64,000 nt of DNA from a virus (IMGVR_UViG_3300034161_000018:64001-128000); one strand, 5' to 3'. Counted from the first letter of the stretch, positions 7,444-21,242 are shown. Translations and numbers: made by a program. Notes: generated from the letters alone by a model not told the origin.

Positions 7444-8391
7444 TTACCCCAAGGTTTTAATTCCCTTCGCACGCATTTCCGCTTCTTGACGATCTTTCGC
7501 CATAGTGGAGTGGTGGAATAGGAAAATCTTTGCTGGCATGTTCATATCAGGCTGCATGCCGAAACCGGAAAGCAGGTTGTAGCTGATATTGAAAATGTCA
7601 GTCTCGCTGTTGTCCGCAAAGAACGACAGCAGGCGCGGCGTGCTTTCGTGCATGAACGTGTGGTCACACATTTTGCAGTTCAACCGCATACGTTCCGAAA
7701 TGCCGTGGTGATACTTTTCGCGAATCGCCAAGATGCGCTCGTACAGTTCGCAATCCGGTTGGGAATTCAGGAACGCGAGTTTGGCTTTAAAGGTTTTGCC
7801 CGGTTTGATCCAGCGCGCCACCTCGGCCATGTGCAGCATCCATTTGTGTTCTTCGATGTAATCGTTGAAATCCGAAAGCGTGTTCACTCTCGGGAAATCA
7901 ATGTCGTCGAATTCGATTGTTTGCAAATCGTCGTCGAGGACATGAACTTGTGGCATCACGTTGGTGATGATTTCCACGTTGTTGTGATTACAGAGTTCAC
8001 GTTTGTACCCTTTGAGTTTCGCAGTCTTTTCATCCATGAACGGCGAACCGACATGGTTGTCTTCTTCGTGCGCCCAAAGGTATTGCTGGCATTTCCACGA
8101 AACTTGCAGCGGCACTTTTGGGAATGAGTGCTGGCGCAACCACGCCATCAAATATTCAAAGTCGCCGTCAGTCAAAAGCGAAACGTCCACACTGGTCGCC
8201 AGTTGCACTGCGCGAATAATGTGAAAGTATGGTCGGTCTTTACTGTGCATCGCGTGGTGCAAGAGTTGAAGTTCAGCAACGGTGAATTGCCGAATCAACA
8301 ATTGTTTAAATGGGTAAGGGGCAAAGCCCGTAGGCAAGCCCCCAATGTCTAAGAAGCGGGCGTCCCGCAGATATTGATCTTCATTGTTCAT
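7444..8391 (-). CDS. baseplate hub assembly protein (gp26-like), paralog A
   Basis: N-terminal LPTGFAPY...IRQFTVAEL and C-terminal CKMCDH Zn-ribbon; homologous to the next gene. Confidence 0.55.
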   Translation of the reverse strand: MNNEDQYLRDARFLDIGGLPTGFAPYPFKQLLIRQFTVAELQLLHHAMHSKDRPYFHIIRAVQLATSVDVSLLTDGDFEYLMAWLRQHSFPKVPLQVSWKCQQYLWAHEEDNHVGSPFMDEKTAKLKGYKRELCNHNNVEIITNVMPQVHVLDDDLQTIEFDDIDFPRVNTLSDFNDYIEEHKWMLHMAEVARWIKPGKTFKAKLAFLNSQPDCELYERILAIREKYHHGISERMRLNCKMCDHTFMHESTPRLLSFFADNSETDIFNISYNLLSGFGMQPDMNMPAKIFLFHHSTMAKDRQEAEMRAKGIKTLG

Positions 8392-9167
8392 ACGAAAAAG
8401 GAAGCTGGTTCGATGGAAGTGGCGAAGTAATGAGTGCTACCGCAAACAGAACATTCTTTGCCGACCTGCCGACCGATACCGTGGCCGATGGTGGCGTTTG
8501 CTTCGGCTGCCGCTTCCATGAGCGACATATCATCCTGCGCGAACAGGATTTCGATTTTGTCTTTCAGTGTCCGGCCTTCGGCAATCCAGCGCGCCGGGCC
8601 AACAATTTTGTGATAGACAGGATCGGTAATCAGTTGATCGTATTCGACCATGTTGCGCACACGCGGGTAATCCAGTCGCGAATCCAGTTCAACTTCCGGA
8701 AGGAAAATCACACTGAAATCGGCGAAGGTCAACGGCGCGATGTTGTGAGTACCGCAGTATTTCAAATCGAAAAGCAGTTTGGTCGGGTCTTCCAGCATTG
8801 CTTGTTCTGGCGTACCTTCCGCAGCTTTCCAGTTTTCCGTGGTGCGAATCACGCGCTGAGTTTTGTAAATCTCGCGGGTGTCTTGGCGAATGTATTGCGT
8901 ACCGCTGCATTCCCAACTGGCCGAGACTTCACGCTTCAAACAATTGAAACGCTGCCACGCCAAGAAGAAATAAAAGTCGCCGGGTGTCAGCAGGCTCACG
9001 TCGAAGTCACACACTTCCTGCATTGCTTCAATAGCTGGCTGCATGTTTTCCAGAAAAACAGCTTTGCCCAACAGTCCCAGTTGCTTCGGGCGAAACGGAT
9101 TCAGGTGAACCTGTTTCACTTGATACGGGACGGTGCGAGAAGGAAGTGTATTGTTATCAAAGATCAT
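8388..9167 (-). CDS. baseplate hub assembly protein (gp26-like), paralog B
   Basis: LPSRTVPY...LNPFRPKQL, DYPRV and CSVCGS; same architecture as 7444..8391. Confidence 0.55.
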   Translation of the reverse strand: MIFDNNTLPSRTVPYQVKQVHLNPFRPKQLGLLGKAVFLENMQPAIEAMQEVCDFDVSLLTPGDFYFFLAWQRFNCLKREVSASWECSGTQYIRQDTREIYKTQRVIRTTENWKAAEGTPEQAMLEDPTKLLFDLKYCGTHNIAPLTFADFSVIFLPEVELDSRLDYPRVRNMVEYDQLITDPVYHKIVGPARWIAEGRTLKDKIEILFAQDDMSLMEAAAEANATIGHGIGRQVGKECSVCGSTHYFATSIEPASFFV

Positions 9168-9663
9168 CGAGATACTCCATACTGTCAGTTGAAAAGTTTT
9201 GTTGAATGGTCAGTCGTTCGTTGGCGCTGGAAAGCTCCCAATTGTTCGACGTGGTTGGCCAACAATTCTTCATTTTAACGCGCATCACAGGATCGCCTTT
9301 CGTGTTCAACAACTCGAAAACCATATCCCGTTTGTAATTGCCCGGAAGATAGTAGTAACCTTCACGCGGATGGCGAATCTTTTCTTGCCACGTTTTCAGG
9401 TACTGCTTGGAACTTGCTTTCGAGTCCTCGTAAAAGGTAATGTCGAATGCAGAGATTTCCAAAAAGCCGGGGTAGTTCGTATATCGCCCACCTTCAAAAA
9501 CGGGTTTCACGTTAATCGAAGGGAAAGGCAAAGAAACCGTTTCGACATACGTTGTGTCGTAATCGAAAGGCAACGAAACACAATGCCATTTGAAAGCGAG
9601 CAGCGGACTGCCCTTTTCGCTTGACGTGCGTTCCGCAAAATCCTTTAACGTGAGAATTGCCAT
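9157..9663 (-). CDS. tail tube-fold protein (gp19/gp54-like)
   Basis: 168 aa; VSLPFPS...YPG...FDITFYED...W...KNCWPT pattern of the gp19 fold; next to the main tube gene. Confidence 0.7.
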   Translation of the reverse strand: MAILTLKDFAERTSSEKGSPLLAFKWHCVSLPFDYDTTYVETVSLPFPSINVKPVFEGGRYTNYPGFLEISAFDITFYEDSKASSKQYLKTWQEKIRHPREGYYYLPGNYKRDMVFELLNTKGDPVMRVKMKNCWPTTSNNWELSSANERLTIQQNFSTDSMEYLDDL

Positions 9664-9718: not shown

Positions 9719-10228
9719 TTAGGCGCGCTCGTAGTAGTCGTAAGCGAATTCCACGTCTACTTGAATCGCTGTACCGCCAGCACCGTCAAACGAATAGTCC
9801 GGAACTTGCGTCGGCCAAACGTTGATGATGTTGTAAGTCAGCGAAGTTGCGCCAGTCTGATCGAAGATGTTGAGAGTTGCAGTCGTGGCGTAATCCTTTT
9901 TGAAGGAACCCGACTGAGTGTCGGTGCCGCGAATGAGTTCTGCCCAAGCTTCCAGCGCTTGCGTAATCCGGCCTTCATACGATTCGACAAAGCCGACCGA
10001 CATGGAGCCAGAGAAAACTTTACGCGCAGCGTGTTTTACTTTGTGGCCGAACAGTTCGATTTCAACTTCCGTGATCGACATGCCCGGCTTTACACCGGAA
10101 CGGCATTGCAGTCGAAGTTGACGGCCATCGGCCCCGTTGCCGGGAACTTTGGTGAACGTAAGTTCAAAGTTGTCGTTCAGCATCGGGTCATTGATACCCA
10201 ATACTTCTGTCAGAGTTACCTTAGACAT
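9719..10228 (-). CDS. major tail tube protein (gp19-like)
   Basis: 169 aa directly downstream of sheath; PG.S...VEI..FGHKVKHA, GFVES, W, NVWPTQV, VEFAYD. Confidence 0.88.
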   Translation of the reverse strand: MSKVTLTEVLGINDPMLNDNFELTFTKVPGNGADGRQLRLQCRSGVKPGMSITEVEIELFGHKVKHAARKVFSGSMSVGFVESYEGRITQALEAWAELIRGTDTQSGSFKKDYATTATLNIFDQTGATSLTYNIINVWPTQVPDYSFDGAGGTAIQVDVEFAYDYYERA

Positions 10229-10241
10229 ATTTGCCTACCTT

Positions 10242-11840
10242 TTAAGCAGTGGCCGTCACGTATTCAACGGCGGTGGAAATTTGCCCGGTCTTCGCAACGG
10301 AAGTGGTAAACAGAATCCGCTTCCCGTACCGCGTCGGTTGGATGTAGTAAATCAATACCACGTCGCCGTTTGCGATTTGTTCTTTCGGGTTGGTTTCTTC
10401 GTCGCACTTCACTTTGTAGTTGTACAAACCGCGACCGGATTTGATCGGGCCGAGAATGTCTTCCACAATTTGCGCAAGCGTTTGCCACAGGAACGGATCG
10501 TTCGGCTCGAAAACCCCGACCATCGTTTCGTACTTGGCGCGTTTTTCAATCAGGTTAATCAGACGACGAACCGGAATGTCGGACAGTGCGGAACTGGCAG
10601 CTTGCAGAGTTTGCGCGCCCCAAACACAGAAACCGTATCCCGAAAGAACGTGAATGAAGTTAACTTGGTTTTGATCCATCATGTTCCGGTCGCCAAGTTT
10701 GTAACGTTGGGCAACATCGGAAACTTCGGAATCGAGAGCACCGCGATTCACACCGGCTGGCGCAAACCATTCGGCAGCGTTGGCGTCGTTGTATGCAAAC
10801 ACGGCAGCGACCACGCCAGAAGGCGGGCAATTAACGGACTGGCCGTCATCGGTCATTACCACAACGTCCGGCGTATACAGACCACCGAAAGAAGTATTTG
10901 CATTCAGCACGTTGCGACGGAAAGTCGAAGCGGCTTGCGAAGTTTGTTGATCGGACGGAACGTCGAGGATCGCGAAACAATCGCGGCGAGCAATTGCAAT
11001 TTCCAGCATGCGCTGTTGCACGCTCACGTCGGTGTAACCACAGTTAATCAAAATGGTTACTTCGACTTCTTCCGGTTCTTCAAACGCATCCCAACCTTCG
11101 ACAATATCGCCGACAGTCACAGGATCGCCGTCGTGGCCTTGAGCCAAGTCGCCGGAAATCACAGCGTTGATCGAACGGAAAGCACCTTCGGTTTCTTTCC
11201 ACTTCGGCGCGTCTTCATTCACCATTGCACGCAAGCGAGAATCCGCCGCTTCCAATTGGGTGATGATGTTTTTCTGTTTGCCGTAGCCGTCAGTTTTATC
11301 GCGCAGAGTGGCACGGTAAGTTTCTACCGGAACGCTCAGGTTGTCTTCGTAGATTTCCAGAATGAACAATTCATTTTCAATGTCGTTCACGTCTGGATAC
11401 ATCACGACACGAATGTTGTTGTTCCACGCGCCGGGGTCAGCCGCATAAAGGAACAAAACTTCTTCCGGCACTTGCGTGCGTTGCGTCGGGTCTTCGTAAC
11501 CTTGATCGGCTACTTTGATTTGAGCGTAACCGTCAATGAAACGAACGCTGATCGAACCGAACAAAGCGTTTACCGCTACCCGGTTGAACCACAGTTGATT
11601 CGAGTATTTCAGGAATTGCTCGGCGCAGAAGTGGGCAAAAGTCAAAGACGCATCGCGACGACCGAATTTCTTACGAAAATCGTTTACGTCAACGGCCAGC
11701 GTAGGAACGCCGACTTTACCGCGCTTCGATGGGCCAACAATCGCGCCAATGCTCGGGGCGGTTTTGCGAGCAGTTTGCGAATTATCTTGCTCGCCTCCGT
11801 AAACCCCAGCACTTGTGCTGCTACCGTTATACAAGGGCAT
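10242..11840 (-). CDS. tail sheath protein 1 (gp18-like)
   Basis: 532 aa; AGVYGGEQD, PGAWNNNI, CFAILDVP, WFAPAGVNRG, WGAQTL...IPVRRL, VFEPND. Confidence 0.93.
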   Translation of the reverse strand: MPLYNGSSTSAGVYGGEQDNSQTARKTAPSIGAIVGPSKRGKVGVPTLAVDVNDFRKKFGRRDASLTFAHFCAEQFLKYSNQLWFNRVAVNALFGSISVRFIDGYAQIKVADQGYEDPTQRTQVPEEVLFLYAADPGAWNNNIRVVMYPDVNDIENELFILEIYEDNLSVPVETYRATLRDKTDGYGKQKNIITQLEAADSRLRAMVNEDAPKWKETEGAFRSINAVISGDLAQGHDGDPVTVGDIVEGWDAFEEPEEVEVTILINCGYTDVSVQQRMLEIAIARRDCFAILDVPSDQQTSQAASTFRRNVLNANTSFGGLYTPDVVVMTDDGQSVNCPPSGVVAAVFAYNDANAAEWFAPAGVNRGALDSEVSDVAQRYKLGDRNMMDQNQVNFIHVLSGYGFCVWGAQTLQAASSALSDIPVRRLINLIEKRAKYETMVGVFEPNDPFLWQTLAQIVEDILGPIKSGRGLYNYKVKCDEETNPKEQIANGDVVLIYYIQPTRYGKRILFTTSVAKTGQISTAVEYVTATA

Positions 11841-14612: not shown

Positions 14613-15704
14613 TTAAGCAACACGCTTGCCTTTAGCAACCGAACGGCTGTTAGCCAGAACGAACGAGAACGGCTCGCTCATCAACCAACCGCGCGAAGTC
14701 GAACCTTCAAAGCTGTTCGATGCTGGCTCGCTGCGAACACCGCCGCGAGTCGAGTAGGCCGCGTGGTTTTCGGCGGAAGCAACAACGTAGATTTCGCCCG
14801 GAGCCAAAACTTTCTGGTTCGGTTGACGGAATGCGTCGGTAATCAGAGTCATGCCGACCAGAGTACCGAGTTGGCCGTTCAGTGCCAGATCGTATTTGGT
14901 GATCGGATCGAGGAACGTTGCGAAATCGTTGGAACCGATAATGTCAGTCCAGAAATCGTTCGCGATCAGACAGTGAGCAACTGGCAAGTTCCAGCCAGCA
15001 ACAGCTTGGCGCAGACGACCGAGGTTTTTGGTGGTCAGTTCACCGGCGATGTATTCCATCGGGTTCATGACGCCAACGGTCAGGTCAGCAGCGGTTTTCC
15101 ACAGGCGGTCTTCTGCAACCATGATGGATTGCAAACCGTCGTTGTAGGCGTGTTCCAGCAGGTCGCCGTTTACTTGTTCCAGATCGAGAGTGTTTACGCG
15201 AACGTTCGCGATGATCTCGAATTCTTCCGGAGTGAAAACGCGTTGGCGAATTTGTTGGTAGCCAACACCGGTCGAAGAAGTTGCAACAACGGCGCTGGTG
15301 TCGTGAGCAGGCATCGGAACGCGTTGCACTTCACCTTGACGCAGAGTGTTACCAACAGCCAGTTTCCGCACGAAACCTTCGCGATCAGTTTGATCGTAGA
15401 TTTGTTGTGCGATGGAAGCGCCCAGCGCGTTCCATTTTTCTGGCGACTGGCGAGCTTCGGCCAGCATTTCACGGCGATCAGCCGCAGTTGCGATTTGTTG
15501 TTCAGGTTGTGCGTGAACGATTTGGCCGCTGGCAACCGCTTGCATCAGACCCGTCAGGTTGTGCATCAGGTCTTGTTTGCTGTAGGCGTTGATTTCGCCG
15601 GTCGAAGAACTCAGAGCCAGTTCACGGCTTTTGCCGAAACGCAGTTCTTCGATTGGGTTGCCGTTTGCCAGAATCATCTTGGCACCACGAAGTTGACCGT
15701 GCAT
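14613..15704 (-). CDS. major capsid protein (HK97 fold)
   Basis: 363 aa from the ATG at 15704 (GGAG RBS), upstream TTG start less likely. Supported by size, position after scaffold and decoration genes, MVAEDRLW, and LGTLVGMTLITD. Confidence 0.8.
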   Translation of the reverse strand: MHGQLRGAKMILANGNPIEELRFGKSRELALSSSTGEINAYSKQDLMHNLTGLMQAVASGQIVHAQPEQQIATAADRREMLAEARQSPEKWNALGASIAQQIYDQTDREGFVRKLAVGNTLRQGEVQRVPMPAHDTSAVVATSSTGVGYQQIRQRVFTPEEFEIIANVRVNTLDLEQVNGDLLEHAYNDGLQSIMVAEDRLWKTAADLTVGVMNPMEYIAGELTTKNLGRLRQAVAGWNLPVAHCLIANDFWTDIIGSNDFATFLDPITKYDLALNGQLGTLVGMTLITDAFRQPNQKVLAPGEIYVVASAENHAAYSTRGGVRSEPASNSFEGSTSRGWLMSEPFSFVLANSRSVAKGKRVA

Positions 15705-15734
15705 ATTTATTTCTCCAGAAAATGCCAAAAAGAT

Positions 15735-18829: not shown

Positions 18830-18871
18830 AAAAAACCCGCACAAAGCACTAGGCTAAGGCGGGTTCTTTTT
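18830..18871 (-). terminator. rho-independent terminator
   Basis: AACCCGC/GCGGGTT arms flanked by A6 and T5 tracts. Confidence 0.6.
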
Positions 18872-19307
18872 ACGCTTTCAGGAGTTTTGGCAATTCTTCC
18901 ATTGTTGGCATATATTCACCTTGCGCCAAACAATGGGAAACGCAACCTTTTTGGGATGCGCAACCGTTTACGAAATCTACCCATTTGTTGTCCATTAAAT
19001 CAATGAACTGTTGTGGGCTGCCGCGCTCTTTATAGCGTTGCAGATATTCAGCTTTGCAATTCAGCGCTGGATAAACGATACCGAACGGAATGTCGTTATC
19101 AACCAACGCTTGGCGCACAACATCGTGAGTTGACGCGAGAATGGTGTAACCTTCCGCAATCTTTTCTTTGATGTGCGCAATGTAGTTTTGCGGAAACTCT
19201 GCTTTATCGAATGTGCTGCTATCCGAATCCAGAATCTTCTGGTCGCCGCGATCACGGAAAAGAGTGGATTTTCCAACACCGGGGAAACCGCAGATTACTT
19301 GAGGCAT
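18870..19307 (-). CDS. P-loop nucleotide kinase-like protein
   Basis: Likely start MPQ at 19307 (AAGGA RBS); VICGFPGVGKST Walker A, then ILDSDSS, typical of small phage adenylate-kinase-like proteins. Confidence 0.75.
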   Translation of the reverse strand: MPQVICGFPGVGKSTLFRDRGDQKILDSDSSTFDKAEFPQNYIAHIKEKIAEGYTILASTHDVVRQALVDNDIPFGIVYPALNCKAEYLQRYKERGSPQQFIDLMDNKWVDFVNGCASQKGCVSHCLAQGEYMPTMEELPKLLKA

Positions 19308-19339
19308 GTTGTTATCCTTTGCTAAGCTGAGCAATACTT

Positions 19340-19762
19340 TCATTGAGGTTGAACCTTCGGTTGATTGGAACGCCAATTGATTGCATCGGAAAAACTCACT
19401 TGAGTAACCGGGCAATTAATTGATTCGGCATACGCACCAATATAGGTACGCGATAAACGTTCGACCAAAGCGTCGTGTCCGAAACGTTTTTCGTATTCGT
19501 CGCAGTTGTCTTTAAACGTCTTGTTTGCTTTTTCGCGTTCTTCTCGGTTTCCATGCGCTTGCTGAAATTGCAAGATTCCACGAACACCACGCGTAGGCAT
19601 TGGGTCGTAAATGTCCCGCATCAGACAATCGGCCATGTGAGTGCCGAGTGCAGCGGCGGAAATTTCGGGAGGCTCAGTTGGAGTTGCGATTGCACTCTCC
19701 ATCAATGCCGCAATACCTTTTACCAAATCCTGCTTTTCCATGGGAATATTTTCACTTTCCAC
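19340..19762 (-). CDS. hypothetical protein
   Basis: ORF in a co-directional array; start could be 19762 (GTG) or 19741. Confidence 0.6.
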   Translation of the reverse strand: MESENIPMEKQDLVKGIAALMESAIATPTEPPEISAAALGTHMADCLMRDIYDPMPTRGVRGILQFQQAHGNREEREKANKTFKDNCDEYEKRFGHDALVERLSRTYIGAYAESINCPVTQVSFSDAINWRSNQPKVQPQ

Positions 19763-19783: not shown

Positions 19784-19933
19784 CTATTCTTCGCAGCCGA
19801 TGCCTTCACCGACGCCGCTTTCTTCGCGTGGAACAACGTAAGCCATGAGGCCCGGTTGTTTGTAAGTGCCGTTAAACACTGCGCGAATCTCTGCGCGTCT
19901 ACGCATTTTTGCGCGCCACAATACTTCTGCCAT
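19784..19933 (-). CDS. small hypothetical protein (49 aa), not in ORF track
   Basis: GGAG RBS, ATG at 19933, MAEVLWRAKMRRRAEIRAVFNGTYKQPGLMAYVVPREESGVGEGIGCEE; fills the gap between neighbouring genes. Confidence 0.55.
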   Translation of the reverse strand: MAEVLWRAKMRRRAEIRAVFNGTYKQPGLMAYVVPREESGVGEGIGCEE

Positions 19934-19938
19934 TTCGT

Positions 19939-20406
19939 TTACTCCGTTGTTTTACGTTCGGCAATATCGACTTCTTGAACAGAGTCGAACTCGAAAGATA
20001 CAAAGCGTTGCACAACTTGCCCGCTGCTTGCTTCCAGTGCGATTACGGTATTCAGGAATTCTAATTCCGAAAACACGGTATGGCGCACAGGTTCGCCGGA
20101 TTGGTTGTATTGCTGAATGGTCAGCGAACCAAAGTTGTCGTTGAATGCTGCAAACGTGTCGAGGTATTTTTGGTCGCCCAACTGGTCATAGAAACCGAGA
20201 GTAACGCGACCTTTTTTACCTTTTGGCATTTGCACTTGATCGACGCGCACCAATGCCATACGCACAGTGTCGAAGTTTTCCAAACTGTCCAGAAACGCAT
20301 CAGGCAGCGGAAACTTTTCGGAACCGCCCAGTGCGTGCAGATCGAAGTTGTCATTCAACAGCGGGTCTGGCATTGCCAAAACTTCGGCCAATGTGATTTG
20401 CGACAT
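19939..20406 (-). CDS. orphan tail-tube paralog
   Basis: MSQITLAEVLAMPDPLLNDNFDL vs tube MSKVTLTEVLGINDPMLNDNFEL; also YNQSG/FDQTG and VSFEFD/VEFAYD. Confidence 0.75.
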   Translation of the reverse strand: MSQITLAEVLAMPDPLLNDNFDLHALGGSEKFPLPDAFLDSLENFDTVRMALVRVDQVQMPKGKKGRVTLGFYDQLGDQKYLDTFAAFNDNFGSLTIQQYNQSGEPVRHTVFSELEFLNTVIALEASSGQVVQRFVSFEFDSVQEVDIAERKTTE

Positions 20407-20417
20407 TTCGGTTTCCT

Positions 20418-21242
20418 TTAGCGAATCATCAGGGCGCGGGGATCAATCAAATGATCGCCGATTGCAGAAACATACGACGGGTCGCCGTAACCTTCGGTGT
20501 AACCGTTAACGCCGGAACGTTTGCCTTTATTCACCAACAGGCTCAATTCAAAACCTGTAATGTCGTGGCAGATGCGATAACACAAACGACCATCACCCAT
20601 TTGGCGGGTTGGTTGTTGTGGTTTGGTATGCGCGCACGGTTTACCAATTCCGCGACCGGCAGTGTGTCCGCAAATCGAACAGGTGTAGGAAGTGAAATAC
20701 ATTCCCATACTGTACGTGTTTAATTCGCGGTCGATCACGCGCTGAATCAATGCAGGATCGCGAGTGCGGTCAAGCGCTGCCAGTTTTACCAGTTTCACTT
20801 TATTTGGGAAACCGGGAATCGGGCGCAGATACGTGTCGAGAATAATCCCGCGAATCCATTCCGGTTTGTGTTGGTGTTCAACATACATCGGTTTGCCGCA
20901 CCACGTTTTGTACGCGAGGTGGCCTTGTTCCGTGTTGAACTTTGTGAGGTCTTTCAAACCAACCGAATCGCCGTTGGTGTTTGGCACGCCGGAAATCATC
21001 GACGGCACTGGAACCAGAATGTAGTCCCGAATGTCTTTCGACAATTTGTATTCTTCGGCAGCCTGACCGAGCCAAATGTTTGCATCGAGTGTGCGCCCTT
21101 CGCCGCCACTCTGTTCGTCAGTAAGATCGACGGAGCCGTTTTTGTTAACGTGCAATCCGTGCATTTCGGTAACGGTGCCGCCGGTCAATGCCGTGCCAGC
21201 AGGCGTTCCCACGGAAAACGAAAGAGACAATTCTTTTTTCAT
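20418..21242 (-). CDS. prohead (capsid maturation) protease with Zn-ribbon insert
   Basis: PNTNGDS, KPMYVEH, YSMG (catalytic-Ser-like), CSICGH...C.H, ITGFELS...DP; HK97-type protease pattern. Confidence 0.7.
   Translation of the reverse strand: MKKELSLSFSVGTPAGTALTGGTVTEMHGLHVNKNGSVDLTDEQSGGEGRTLDANIWLGQAAEEYKLSKDIRDYILVPVPSMISGVPNTNGDSVGLKDLTKFNTEQGHLAYKTWCGKPMYVEHQHKPEWIRGIILDTYLRPIPGFPNKVKLVKLAALDRTRDPALIQRVIDRELNTYSMGMYFTSYTCSICGHTAGRGIGKPCAHTKPQQPTRQMGDGRLCYRICHDITGFELSLLVNKGKRSGVNGYTEGYGDPSYVSAIGDHLIDPRALMIR

What the first reader, a model, noticed from the sequence alone, without database searches (positions are those of the whole stretch)
19939..20406. Orphan tail-tube paralog missing the polymerisation hairpin, outside the tail cluster
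Seen: its first 23 residues match the main tube closely, and similarity continues (VTLGFYD/MSVGFVE, YNQSG/FDQTG, VSFEFD/VEFAYD). The segment equivalent to ITEVEIELFGHKVKHAAR appears deleted. It lies between the protease and accessory genes. Known: that beta-hairpin loop mediates ring-to-ring stacking in gp19/Hcp-fold tubes. Inference: a capping or length-limiting subunit, a partner of sheath 2, or a dominant-negative decoy against other phages' tails or host T6SS/defence sensors that recognise tube proteins.
Basis: partly seen in the sequence, partly recalled or inferred. Interest (0 to 1): 0.66.

Follow-up and report, generated by a model that had tools for sequence, protein, structure and literature searches.

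The report
Loop-less tail-tube paralog, jumbo phage
Next to the head protease of an uncultured PaBG-like jumbo phage lies a small, fast-evolving copy of the tail-tube protein that keeps the tube's N-terminal arm but has lost both loops that join tube rings, so it probably binds tube or sheath subunits without polymerising; its real job is untested.

Summary
ORF 19939-20406(-), 155 aa and here called X, shares 15 of its first 23 residues with the main tube protein (9719-10228(-)). AlphaFold gives a confident tube (gp19/Hcp) fold.

X has a 7-residue beta2-beta3 connection where the tube has a 30-residue long loop. It also lacks the 14-residue loop after the helix. Both losses hold across the whole X family, a small unannotated family of 13 cluster representatives in 1.8 billion proteins.

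- **Terminator:** the solved T4 tube terminator gp3 keeps both loops to grip the tube and has a specialised N-arm. X is the inverse, so a gp3-like cap is unlikely.
- **Sheath-2 partner:** Lu11, AD1 and Erwinia phage SNUABM_17 have both sheaths, the tube and tube-2, but no X.
- **Core or accessory:** X sits in three different gene contexts and diverges far faster than the tube (68% against 93% identity between close relatives). It is an accessory gene.

My best reading is a one-sided, non-polymerising subunit that shows a tube-like top face. It probably binds the connector loops of the phage's own tube protein, or the sheath. A counter-defence role is not excluded.

The parts
19939..20406 (-). 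Gene X: 155-aa divergent tail-tube-fold protein, the third tube paralog of this phage
   Evidence: ORF with RBS. AlphaFold model pLDDT 85.5. Every Foldseek/VIA hit is a tube-fold protein. hhalign to the tube family 97%, E 1.2e-10.
20338..20406 (-). N-terminal arm (residues 1-23), shared with the main tube protein
   Evidence: 15/23 identical to the tube, E 6e-9. It is the most conserved segment of the X family: 50% mean pairwise identity against 32% overall. The DNA is only 68% identical with many synonymous differences, so this is not recent gene conversion.
20254..20325 (-). Helical insert (residues 28-51) in the beta1-beta2 loop, absent from the tube
   Evidence: DSSP helices 36-40 and 42-51 at pLDDT 84-92. 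The tube has a 12-residue loop here. This is the least conserved segment of the family at 18%.
20212..20232 (-). Short beta2-beta3 connection (residues 59-65, QMPKGKK) in place of the 30-residue long loop or hairpin
   Evidence: The loop is 6-19 residues across the X family and a fixed 30 in 20 tube homologues.
20131..20142 (-). Four-residue link (residues 89-92 region) after the helix, in place of the 14-residue post-helix loop of the tube
   Evidence: Four residues in all 15 X-family members, 14 in all 20 tube homologues. Secondary structure.
20414..20417 (-). Shine-Dalgarno-like AGGA, 7 nt before the ATG and just after the protease stop codon
   Evidence: Sequence read.
9719..10228 (-). Main tail tube protein (169 aa), the source of the N-arm similarity
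   Evidence: phrog_45 at 1e-30, Pfam gp19 at 2.7e-5. Profile hits to the T4 gp19 and KP1 tube structures. 64% identical to the PaBG tube.
9157..9663 (-). Tube-2 (168 aa), the conserved second tube paralog next to the tube; a probable initiator-type ring that keeps the post-helix loop
   Evidence: phrog_45 at 1e-21. Aligns to tube residues 74-151, loop included. Present next to the tube in PaBG, Lu11, AD1 and SNUABM_17.
20418..21242 (-). Prohead protease, immediately upstream of X
   Evidence: phrog_18299 at 1.1e-92. The same neighbour occurs in the close relative L003.

Best explanation
X is a functional gene for a diverged tail-tube-fold protein. It belongs to a small, previously unannotated family found in some PaBG-like jumbo phages.

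Shown here: X has the tube beta-sandwich with its flanking helix. It keeps the tube's N-terminal arm, which is the most conserved part of the family. Across the family it lacks the two connector loops, the long beta2-beta3 loop and the post-helix loop. It is an accessory gene: patchy among relatives, mobile within genomes and fast-evolving.

Inferred from solved tails: in a tube ring the N-arm sits on the head-proximal face and receives the long loops of the ring above. The two loops sit on the distal face and grip the ring below. X is therefore a one-sided subunit. It can offer a tube-like top face, but it cannot hold on to a ring beneath it and cannot build a tube.

Most likely mechanism (inference): X binds the connector loops of the phage's own unassembled tube protein. 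It could instead bind the sheath, which also touches the N-arm. In either case it would act as an assembly modulator or chaperone-like docking partner. It would not form part of the tube and would not cap the tube's growing end.
For: Fold: the model has pLDDT 85.5 and pTM 0.74. Foldseek finds only tube-fold proteins in the PDB and in BFVD, at probability 1.0. VIA Z scores are 9-11 to T4 and KP1 baseplate-tube junction proteins, eCIS tubes and Hcp, 9.1 to T4 gp3 and 8.2 to gp19. Language-model features point to Phage_T4_gp19.

Homology: hhalign 97%, E 1.2e-10.

Loops: 7 against 30 residues and 4 against 14 residues, family-wide.

N-arm: 15/23 identical to the tube and the most conserved segment of the family. 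It is kept by selection at the protein level, not by gene conversion.

Accessory status: the X profile finds only the tube N-terminus in Lu11, AD1 and SNUABM_17, although their tail modules are homologous. X occupies three contexts. It follows the protease in the window and in L003. In HRDY3, L005 and L006 it is coupled to a phrog_1460 gene and lies near the sigma factor and SSB genes. In PaBG it lies among tRNA genes. Between the window and G001 the tube is 93% identical and X is 68% identical.

Geometry from the literature: the long loop is the main inter-ring contact, folds onto the subjacent ring and binds the N-terminus of the next ring. The post-helix loop adds contacts in contractile tails. 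Deleting the loop in YSD1 gives hexameric rings that do not stack (PMC8718954; PMC9022992). In T4 gp3 the N-arm contacts the ring above and both loops contact the tube below (PMC12929629).
Against: No binding, oligomer state, expression timing or virion presence was tested. No multimer prediction was available.

Without the N-arm the sequence signal is weak (E 0.0023), so the fold assignment rests mainly on the AlphaFold model, which was built from only 15 sequences.

The tube model is poor in the loop region (pLDDT below 50 at residues 63-69), so loop lengths rest on secondary-structure boundaries.

A ring with a tube-like top face could nucleate unproductive polytubes, which would harm the phage. 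This argues that X is either monomeric or tightly controlled.

The N-arm might be conserved for a partner other than the tube loop, such as the sheath, the tape measure or a chaperone.

The PaBG virion proteome (14 Coomassie bands) neither lists nor excludes the homologue.
Confidence: 0.4

Rival explanations
1. X is a counter-defence protein. It would either cover the tube protein's inter-ring hairpin, the epitope of Avs16-type sensors, before assembly, or act as a tube look-alike that soaks up another tube-sensing system.
For: The profile is that of an accessory gene: patchy, mobile and fast-evolving. In L006 the next gene downstream carries a Tad2-like anti-Thoeris domain (PF11195, 5e-20). 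In PaBG and HRDY3 the homologue lies among non-structural genes. Tube proteins are known immune triggers for DSR2 and Avs16. The N-arm is the natural ligand of the hairpin.
Against: There is no similarity to any known anti-defence protein. The link to the Tad2-like gene is a single instance of neighbourhood. As a plain decoy, X lacks the hairpin that Avs16 contacts. In the window it sits in a late-looking head-gene array, 11 nt after the protease gene.
Confidence: 0.2
2. X is a minor virion component. It could be an extra ring at the baseplate end of the tube, under the first tube ring, or a neck or head-completion ring of the tube-like fold family.
For: The top VIA matches are baseplate-tube junction proteins of T4 (5iv5_BG, Z 10.9) and KP1 (Z 10.7), and eCIS initiator-type tubes (6rao_F, 6j0n_n, 7aeb_Y). 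A tube-like top face without bottom loops suits a ring that sits under the tube. The gene lies in a head and neck morphogenesis array in the window and in L003. Neck proteins gp14 and gp15 also share the tube-like fold.
Against: Those Z scores are tied with ordinary tubes and Hcp, and the main tube matches the same chains equally well. Tube-2, which is conserved beside the tube followed by hub-like paralogs and a VgrG-like spike, already fits the initiator role. Lu11, AD1 and SNUABM_17 build homologous tails without X. X evolves much faster than the structural genes.
Confidence: 0.2
3. X is a gp3-like tube terminator or length limiter that caps the growing, head-proximal end of the tube.
For: X has the tube fold with the polymerisation loop missing, so further growth on one side would be blocked. 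VIA Z is 9.1 to T4 gp3 (9mkb_AC). No terminator has been identified among the neck genes g144, g250 and g472.
Against: T4 gp3 binds the last tube ring with its own long loop (45-65) and post-helix loop (97-105). It uses a specialised N-arm for gp15. X lacks both loops and has a tube-like N-arm. A terminator is a core part, yet X is absent from Lu11, AD1 and SNUABM_17.
Confidence: 0.07
4. X is a dedicated tube-like partner of the second sheath protein.
For: This phage group has two sheath proteins. In contractile tails the N-arm of tube proteins touches the sheath.
Against: Sheath 2 is present in all five relatives tested, but X is in only two of them. X lies 13 kb from sheath 2 in the window.
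Confidence: 0.05
5. X is a decaying duplicate of the tube gene with no function.
For: It has lost its loops and most of its sequence similarity. It matches no curated family.
Against: The frame is open and of similar length (141-169 aa) in 13 clusters as divergent as 25-30% identity. There are conserved motifs in the N-arm and in the GDQxxLD helix. The fold is predicted with confidence. The gene has an RBS and is tightly packed among its neighbours.
Confidence: 0.03

Closest known systems
Myophage tail tube proteins of the T4 gp19 type (Pfam PF06841, phrog_45), here the phage's own tube at 9719-10228(-)
   Same: Both have a beta-sandwich with a flanking helix. Both have the N-terminal arm with the DP(M/L)L(N/D)DNF(D/E)L motif. 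Both are acidic, and the strand order can be aligned over 129 columns.
   Different: X has no 30-residue long loop and no 14-residue post-helix loop, and it has an extra helical insert. Identity outside the N-arm is about 16%. X fails both curated family models. It is not next to the sheath and is not conserved in all relatives.
T4 gp3 tube terminator (PDB 9mkb; PMC12929629)
   Same: Both are tube-fold paralogs that do not propagate the tube. VIA Z 9.1.
   Different: gp3 keeps both distal loops to grip the tube and has a specialised N-arm for gp15. X shows the inverse pattern.
Tube initiator rings (T4 gp54 and gp48, Afp5/Pvc5, phiKZ gp88)
   Same: Each is a tube-fold ring whose top face accepts the first tube ring. 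These give the best VIA scores, Z 9.6-10.9. phiKZ gp88 aligns with the tube core.
   Different: Initiators are core genes encoded in the baseplate or tube module. gp88 keeps the tube's E-loop. In this phage tube-2 fits that slot. X is accessory and lies elsewhere.
T6SS Hcp
   Same: Both are compact tube-fold proteins without the post-helix loop. The superpositions are tight (rmsd about 3 A over 104-118 residues, Z 8-9.6).
   Different: According to the review, Hcp lacks the N-loop, whereas X keeps a phage-type N-arm. There is no sequence relationship, and X is encoded by a phage.
Engineered loop-deletion mutant of the YSD1 tube protein (Hardy et al. 2020, as summarised in PMC8718954)
   Same: It is a tube protein without the beta2-beta3 loop. 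It forms hexameric rings and does not build tubes. This is the behaviour I predict for X.
   Different: It is a laboratory construct from a siphophage. X is a natural, conserved gene that has also lost the post-helix loop.

Membership tests
Tail-tube fold superfamily (gp19 / Hcp / gpV-N) | Beta-sandwich flanked by one alpha-helix | tested here: met
   AlphaFold model at pLDDT 85.5. All significant Foldseek hits are tube-fold proteins. VIA Z up to 10.9.
Tail-tube fold superfamily (gp19 / Hcp / gpV-N) | Detectable sequence homology to a tube family | tested here: met
   hhalign 97%, E 1.2e-10 against the phage's tube family. The signal comes mostly from the N-arm; without it E is 0.0023.
Polymerising major tube protein (T4 gp19 type; PF06841, phrog_45) | Passes the curated family models | tested here: not met
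   No Pfam or PHROG hit for X. Genome-wide scans with PF06841 and phrog_45 find only the tube and tube-2.
Polymerising major tube protein (T4 gp19 type; PF06841, phrog_45) | Long beta2-beta3 loop that makes the main ring-to-ring contact | tested here: not met
   7 residues in X against 30 in the tube. The X family ranges from 6 to 19.
Polymerising major tube protein (T4 gp19 type; PF06841, phrog_45) | Post-helix (alpha) loop of contractile-tail tubes | tested here: not met
   4 residues in all X-family members against 14 in all tube homologues.
Polymerising major tube protein (T4 gp19 type; PF06841, phrog_45) | N-terminal arm (N-loop) | tested here: met
   15/23 identical to the tube. Both models show a short helix at residues 6-11 followed by an extended segment.
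Polymerising major tube protein (T4 gp19 type; PF06841, phrog_45) | Forms stacked hexameric rings | not testable with these tools
   No multimer prediction and no experiment were available.
gp3-type tube terminator | Own long loop and second loop on the distal face that attach to the last tube ring | tested here: not met
   Both loops are missing in X. They are required in gp3.
gp3-type tube terminator | N-terminal segment specialised for the protein above it (gp15 type) | tested here: inconclusive
   X's N-arm is tube-like, not diverged. No gp15 counterpart has been identified in this phage.
gp3-type tube terminator | Core gene conserved wherever the tail module is conserved | tested here: not met
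   Absent from Lu11, AD1 and pEa_SNUABM_17, which have homologous tube, tube-2 and both sheaths.
Tube initiator (gp54 / Afp5 / phiKZ gp88 type) | Tube-like top face that accepts the first tube ring | tested here: inconclusive
   The N-arm is tube-like and the best VIA rows are junction proteins, but they are tied with tubes. Docking was not tested.
Tube initiator (gp54 / Afp5 / phiKZ gp88 type) | Encoded in the tube and baseplate module and conserved | tested here: not met
   X lies 9.7 kb away among head genes and is patchy. Tube-2 holds the conserved slot.
Known anti-defence proteins (DSAD1, Tad2 and others) | Sequence or profile similarity to a described inhibitor | tested here: inconclusive
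   No Pfam or PHROG family matches X. PADLOC holds defence models, not anti-defence models, and was not run. Only a neighbouring Tad2-like gene was found, in L006.

The most novel reading that the evidence does not exclude
X is a natural hairpin acceptor. It is a one-sided tube mimic whose conserved N-arm and top face capture the inter-ring beta-hairpin of newly made tube protein. This would keep tube protein from polymerising off the baseplate. It would also hide the epitope that tube-sensing immune receptors of the Avs16 type recognise. If so, it is a new class of structural-protein shield encoded by jumbo phages.
Probability: 0.12. Interest if true: 0.75.

Novelty: new variant of a known kind. 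Interest (0 to 1): 0.48.

Why it matters
Tube-fold proteins are known as tubes, initiators, spacers, hubs, terminators and neck rings. In each of these the loops or arms that were kept explain which neighbour the ring binds.

X shows a combination not described in the structures and reviews I could read. It has a tube-identical proximal arm and neither distal connector. It also behaves as a mobile, fast-evolving accessory gene.

If it binds the tube protein's hairpin, it would be a natural tool for controlling or probing tube polymerisation. It might also be a way for phages to hide a conserved immune epitope. If it is a minor virion ring, it would add a part to the little-studied two-sheath tails of PaBG-like phages.

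Either way, about a dozen 'hypothetical proteins', including PaBG_00165 and the HRDY3 homologue, can now be annotated as tube-fold proteins.

Tried and rejected
- **Curated and sequence searches on X found nothing.** Pfam and PHROGs gave no hit. Sequence and profile searches of PDB chains gave nothing real; designed helical repeats at 2e-4 are spurious. The search for longer, fused forms found none, which is weak evidence.
- **Tool problems.** L006 and L010 are not held for genome search.
- **PaBG virion proteome.** It lists only 14 gel bands, with no small proteins and not even the tube, so it says nothing about the homologue.
- **Fold ranking to separate tube, initiator and terminator.** The rows are tied within one Z unit, and the main tube matches the same chains. 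I rejected this as a discriminator.
- **Co-variation of X's N-arm with the cognate tube N-arm.** In four phages cognate pairs are at or near the maximum (for example 'YSL' in both HRDY3 proteins and 'EVL' in both window proteins). Lu11's tube scores as high as the cognate one, and four pairs are too few.
- **Recent gene conversion of the 5' end.** Rejected: 68% DNA identity with many synonymous differences.
- **Promoter and terminator scan around X.** Nothing above shuffled expectation.
- **Net charge and pI.** Both families are acidic, so this is not informative.
- **The T5 tip paper, read for loop orientation.** Not helpful. The orientation came from the T4 neck paper instead.
- **Identifying a canonical terminator among g144, g250 and g472.** No family hit. 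I had no fold jobs left.

Full report
**What the window is.** Every gene in the window is on the minus strand. The record is a complete 274,896-bp virus genome with direct terminal repeats. Its closest cultured relatives are the Pseudomonas jumbo phages PaBG, HRDY3 and Lu11; the tube is 64%, 54% and 50% identical to theirs.

Reading downstream on the minus strand, the genes are:
- a 544-aa protein and a 115-aa protein;
- the prohead protease, 20418-21242 (phrog_18299, 1e-92);
- X, 19939-20406;
- a 49-aa ORF, then g140, g181 and g131;
- a 653-aa protein (phrog_20988), a virion protein and the major capsid protein (14613-15728);
- three neck-region genes;
- sheath 1 (10242-11840), the tube (9719-10228) and tube-2 (9157-9663);
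- two hub-like paralogs and a large VgrG/lysozyme-type protein.

Sheath 2 lies at 33458-35098.

**The observation.** X is a 155-aa ORF with AGGA 7 nt before its ATG, and it starts 11 nt after the protease stop codon. BLASTP against the main tube aligns only residues 1-23, with 15 identical and 20 similar (E 6e-9). The DNA of that segment is 68% identical with many synonymous differences, so the similarity is maintained at the protein level and is not a recent gene conversion.

An exhaustive HMMER search found 13 cluster representatives. All are 141-169 aa except one of 251 aa. tblastn found homologues in HRDY3 and PaBG (PaBG_00165), both annotated as hypothetical.

A profile of this family aligned to a profile of 20 tube homologues gives 97% probability and E 1.2e-10 over 129 columns. 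With the first 25 residues removed, the same register is found only weakly (E 0.0023, probability 12%). So the sequence evidence beyond the N-arm is suggestive, not decisive.

**Fold.** The AlphaFold2 model of X, built on the 15-sequence alignment, is confident (mean pLDDT 85.5, pTM 0.74). Foldseek against the PDB and against viral models returns only tube-fold proteins at probability 1.0. These include PVC and AFP tubes, T4 tail and baseplate chains, lambda gpV, Hcp, and jumbo-phage tube proteins.

VIA-align gives:
- Z 10.9 and 10.7 to the baseplate-tube junction proteins of T4 (5iv5_BG) and KP1;
- Z 9-10 to eCIS tubes and initiator-type tubes and to Hcp;
- Z 9.1 to T4 gp3;
- Z 8.2 to T4 gp19.

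These rows are tied. The main tube's own model matches the same chains with similar Z. The ranking therefore cannot say which functional class X belongs to. Language-model features also point to the gp19 family.

**Anatomy.** The table compares the secondary structure of the two models.

| Element | Main tube | X |
|---|---|---|
| N-arm | short helix 6-10 | short helix 6-11 |
| beta1 | 21-25 | 21-27 |
| beta1-beta2 link | 12 residues | 24 residues, two helices (36-40, 42-51) |
| beta2 | 38-43 | 52-58 |
| beta2-beta3 link | 30 residues (44-73, low confidence, as expected for a loop ordered only in the polymer) | 7 residues (59-65) |
| beta3 | 74-83 | 66-73 |
| helix | 87-100 | 79-87 |
| post-helix link | 14 residues | 4 residues |

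Across the families, the beta2-beta3 link is 30 residues in all 20 tube homologues and 6-19 in the X family. It is shortest in the window's clade. The post-helix link is 14 residues in every tube and 4 in every X.

Within the X family the N-arm is the most conserved segment (50% mean pairwise identity against 32% overall). The helical insert is the least conserved (18%). Tube-2 aligns with the tube across the post-helix loop, and its beta3 starts at the same distance from the N-terminus, so tube-2 is a full-featured paralog.

**What the lost and kept parts do in solved tails.** Two reviews cover the tube proteins.
- The beta2-beta3 long loop gives the largest inter-ring contact and folds onto the subjacent ring. 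Deleting it abolishes tube growth in T5 and SPP1. In YSD1 the deletion yields free hexameric rings.
- The N-loop mainly contacts that long loop and, in most contractile systems, the sheath.
- The post-helix loop bridges the sheath, the N-loop and the long loop (PMC8718954).
- The second review says the long loop binds the N-terminus of the next ring, and that in T4 the post-helix loop seals the gap between rings (PMC9022992).

The 2026 T4 neck structure fixes the polarity. The tube terminator gp3 sits on top of the last gp19 ring. It holds that ring with its own long loop (45-65) and second loop (97-105). Its N-terminal segment (2-15) reaches up to gp15 (PMC12929629).

It follows that the N-arm is on the head-proximal face and the loops are on the distal face. 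This step is my inference. X keeps a proximal face nearly identical to the tube's and has lost both distal connectors. That is the mirror image of a terminator.

**Is it a core tail part?** The X-family HMM was run over five complete relatives. It finds a full-length X in HRDY3 (2e-51) and PaBG (1e-24). In Lu11, AD1 and Erwinia phage pEa_SNUABM_17 it finds only the tube's own N-terminus. All five have sheath 1 and sheath 2, and the tube with tube-2 beside it. The PaBG paper describes the two-sheath tail as a trait of the whole group (PMC7412058). So X is not needed to build this tail, and it is not an obligate partner of sheath 2.

**Context and rate.** X follows the protease only in the window and its close relatives L003 and L004. 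There an extra 164-aa ORF is inserted right after X.

In HRDY3, L005 and L006 its start overlaps the end of a phrog_1460 gene, annotated 'tRNA amidotransferase'. The sigma-factor and SSB genes lie downstream. In L006 the next gene downstream carries a Tad2-like anti-Thoeris domain (PF11195, 5e-20).

In PaBG X lies among tRNA genes, and the region upstream of the PaBG capsid block has no X.

Between the window phage and G001 the tube and the capsid protein are 93% identical, the protease 79% and X 68%. This is the profile of an accessory gene.

**Explanation.** I commit to a one-sided, non-polymerising tube mimic. It presents the tube's proximal face and most likely binds the connector loops of the phage's own tube protein, or the sheath. 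It would modulate or chaperone assembly. I put the fold and anatomy at about 0.9 and the functional reading at about 0.35-0.4.

The rivals are:
- a counter-defence role (0.2). Avs16 contacts the tube hairpin (PMC13581612), so a hairpin-binding shield is conceivable while a plain decoy is not;
- a minor virion ring at the baseplate end or in the neck (0.2);
- a gp3-like cap (0.07);
- a sheath-2 partner (0.05);
- a dead duplicate (0.03).

**Novelty and verdict.** The fold and superfamily are known. The family itself is unannotated: it has no Pfam or PHROG model, and its members in PaBG and HRDY3 are labelled hypothetical. The combination of a tube-identical N-arm, loss of both connector loops and accessory behaviour is not described in the structures and reviews I could read. 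I class it as a new variant of a known kind, of moderate interest.

**Limits.** I had no multimer prediction, no expression or virion data, only 15 sequences behind the model, and a weak tube model in the loop region. One tool, the look-up of encoding contigs, was closed.

Noticed in passing
window 18870-19762 (-); L003 9075-10082: g140 (19340-19762) and g181 (18870-19415, P-loop GFPGVGKST, phrog_4182) overlap in different frames in the window. In the close relative L003 they form one continuous 335-aa ORF. This implies a frameshift near 19343-19361 in the window: a sequencing error, a real split or a programmed shift.
   Followed up: partly
window 19784-19933 (-); L003 8910-9062 and 8468-8962: A conserved 49-50-aa ORF ending in ...IGCEE follows X in both phages. 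L003 also has an extra 164-aa ORF, overlapping X's stop codon, that the window lacks. The slot after the protease therefore behaves as a variable accessory islet.
   Followed up: partly
L006 8758-9378 (+): A 206-aa protein with a C-terminal Tad2-like (Thoeris anti-defence 2) domain (PF11195, 5e-20) lies immediately downstream of the X homologue in a 312-kb jumbo-phage contig.
   Followed up: no
L001 5513-6004; L006 7441-8001; L005 2461-2934: In the HRDY3 clade the X homologue's start codon overlaps the end of a phrog_1460 gene annotated 'tRNA amidotransferase'. This suggests translational coupling with a non-structural gene.
   Followed up: no
window 7444-9167 (-): Two paralogous proteins of 259 and 315 aa (phrog_13792; a weak baseplate-hub hit for the second) follow tube-2 and precede the large VgrG/lysozyme-type protein. 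The order tube, tube-2, spacer/hub-like pair, spike resembles eCIS and T4 central baseplate modules.
   Followed up: no
window 30475-33451 (-): The 214-aa and 775-aa proteins downstream of sheath 2 share an N-terminal domain (phrog_13325). The PaBG counterpart of the small one (gp214) is a virion protein according to the PaBG proteome table.
   Followed up: no
window 9719-10228 (-): Homologues of the main tube carry a precomputed Pfam label, PF23849, that the local Pfam copy did not report for the window's tube. In the local scan the tube also falls just below the PF06841 gathering score (24.4 against 28.2 bits).
   Followed up: no
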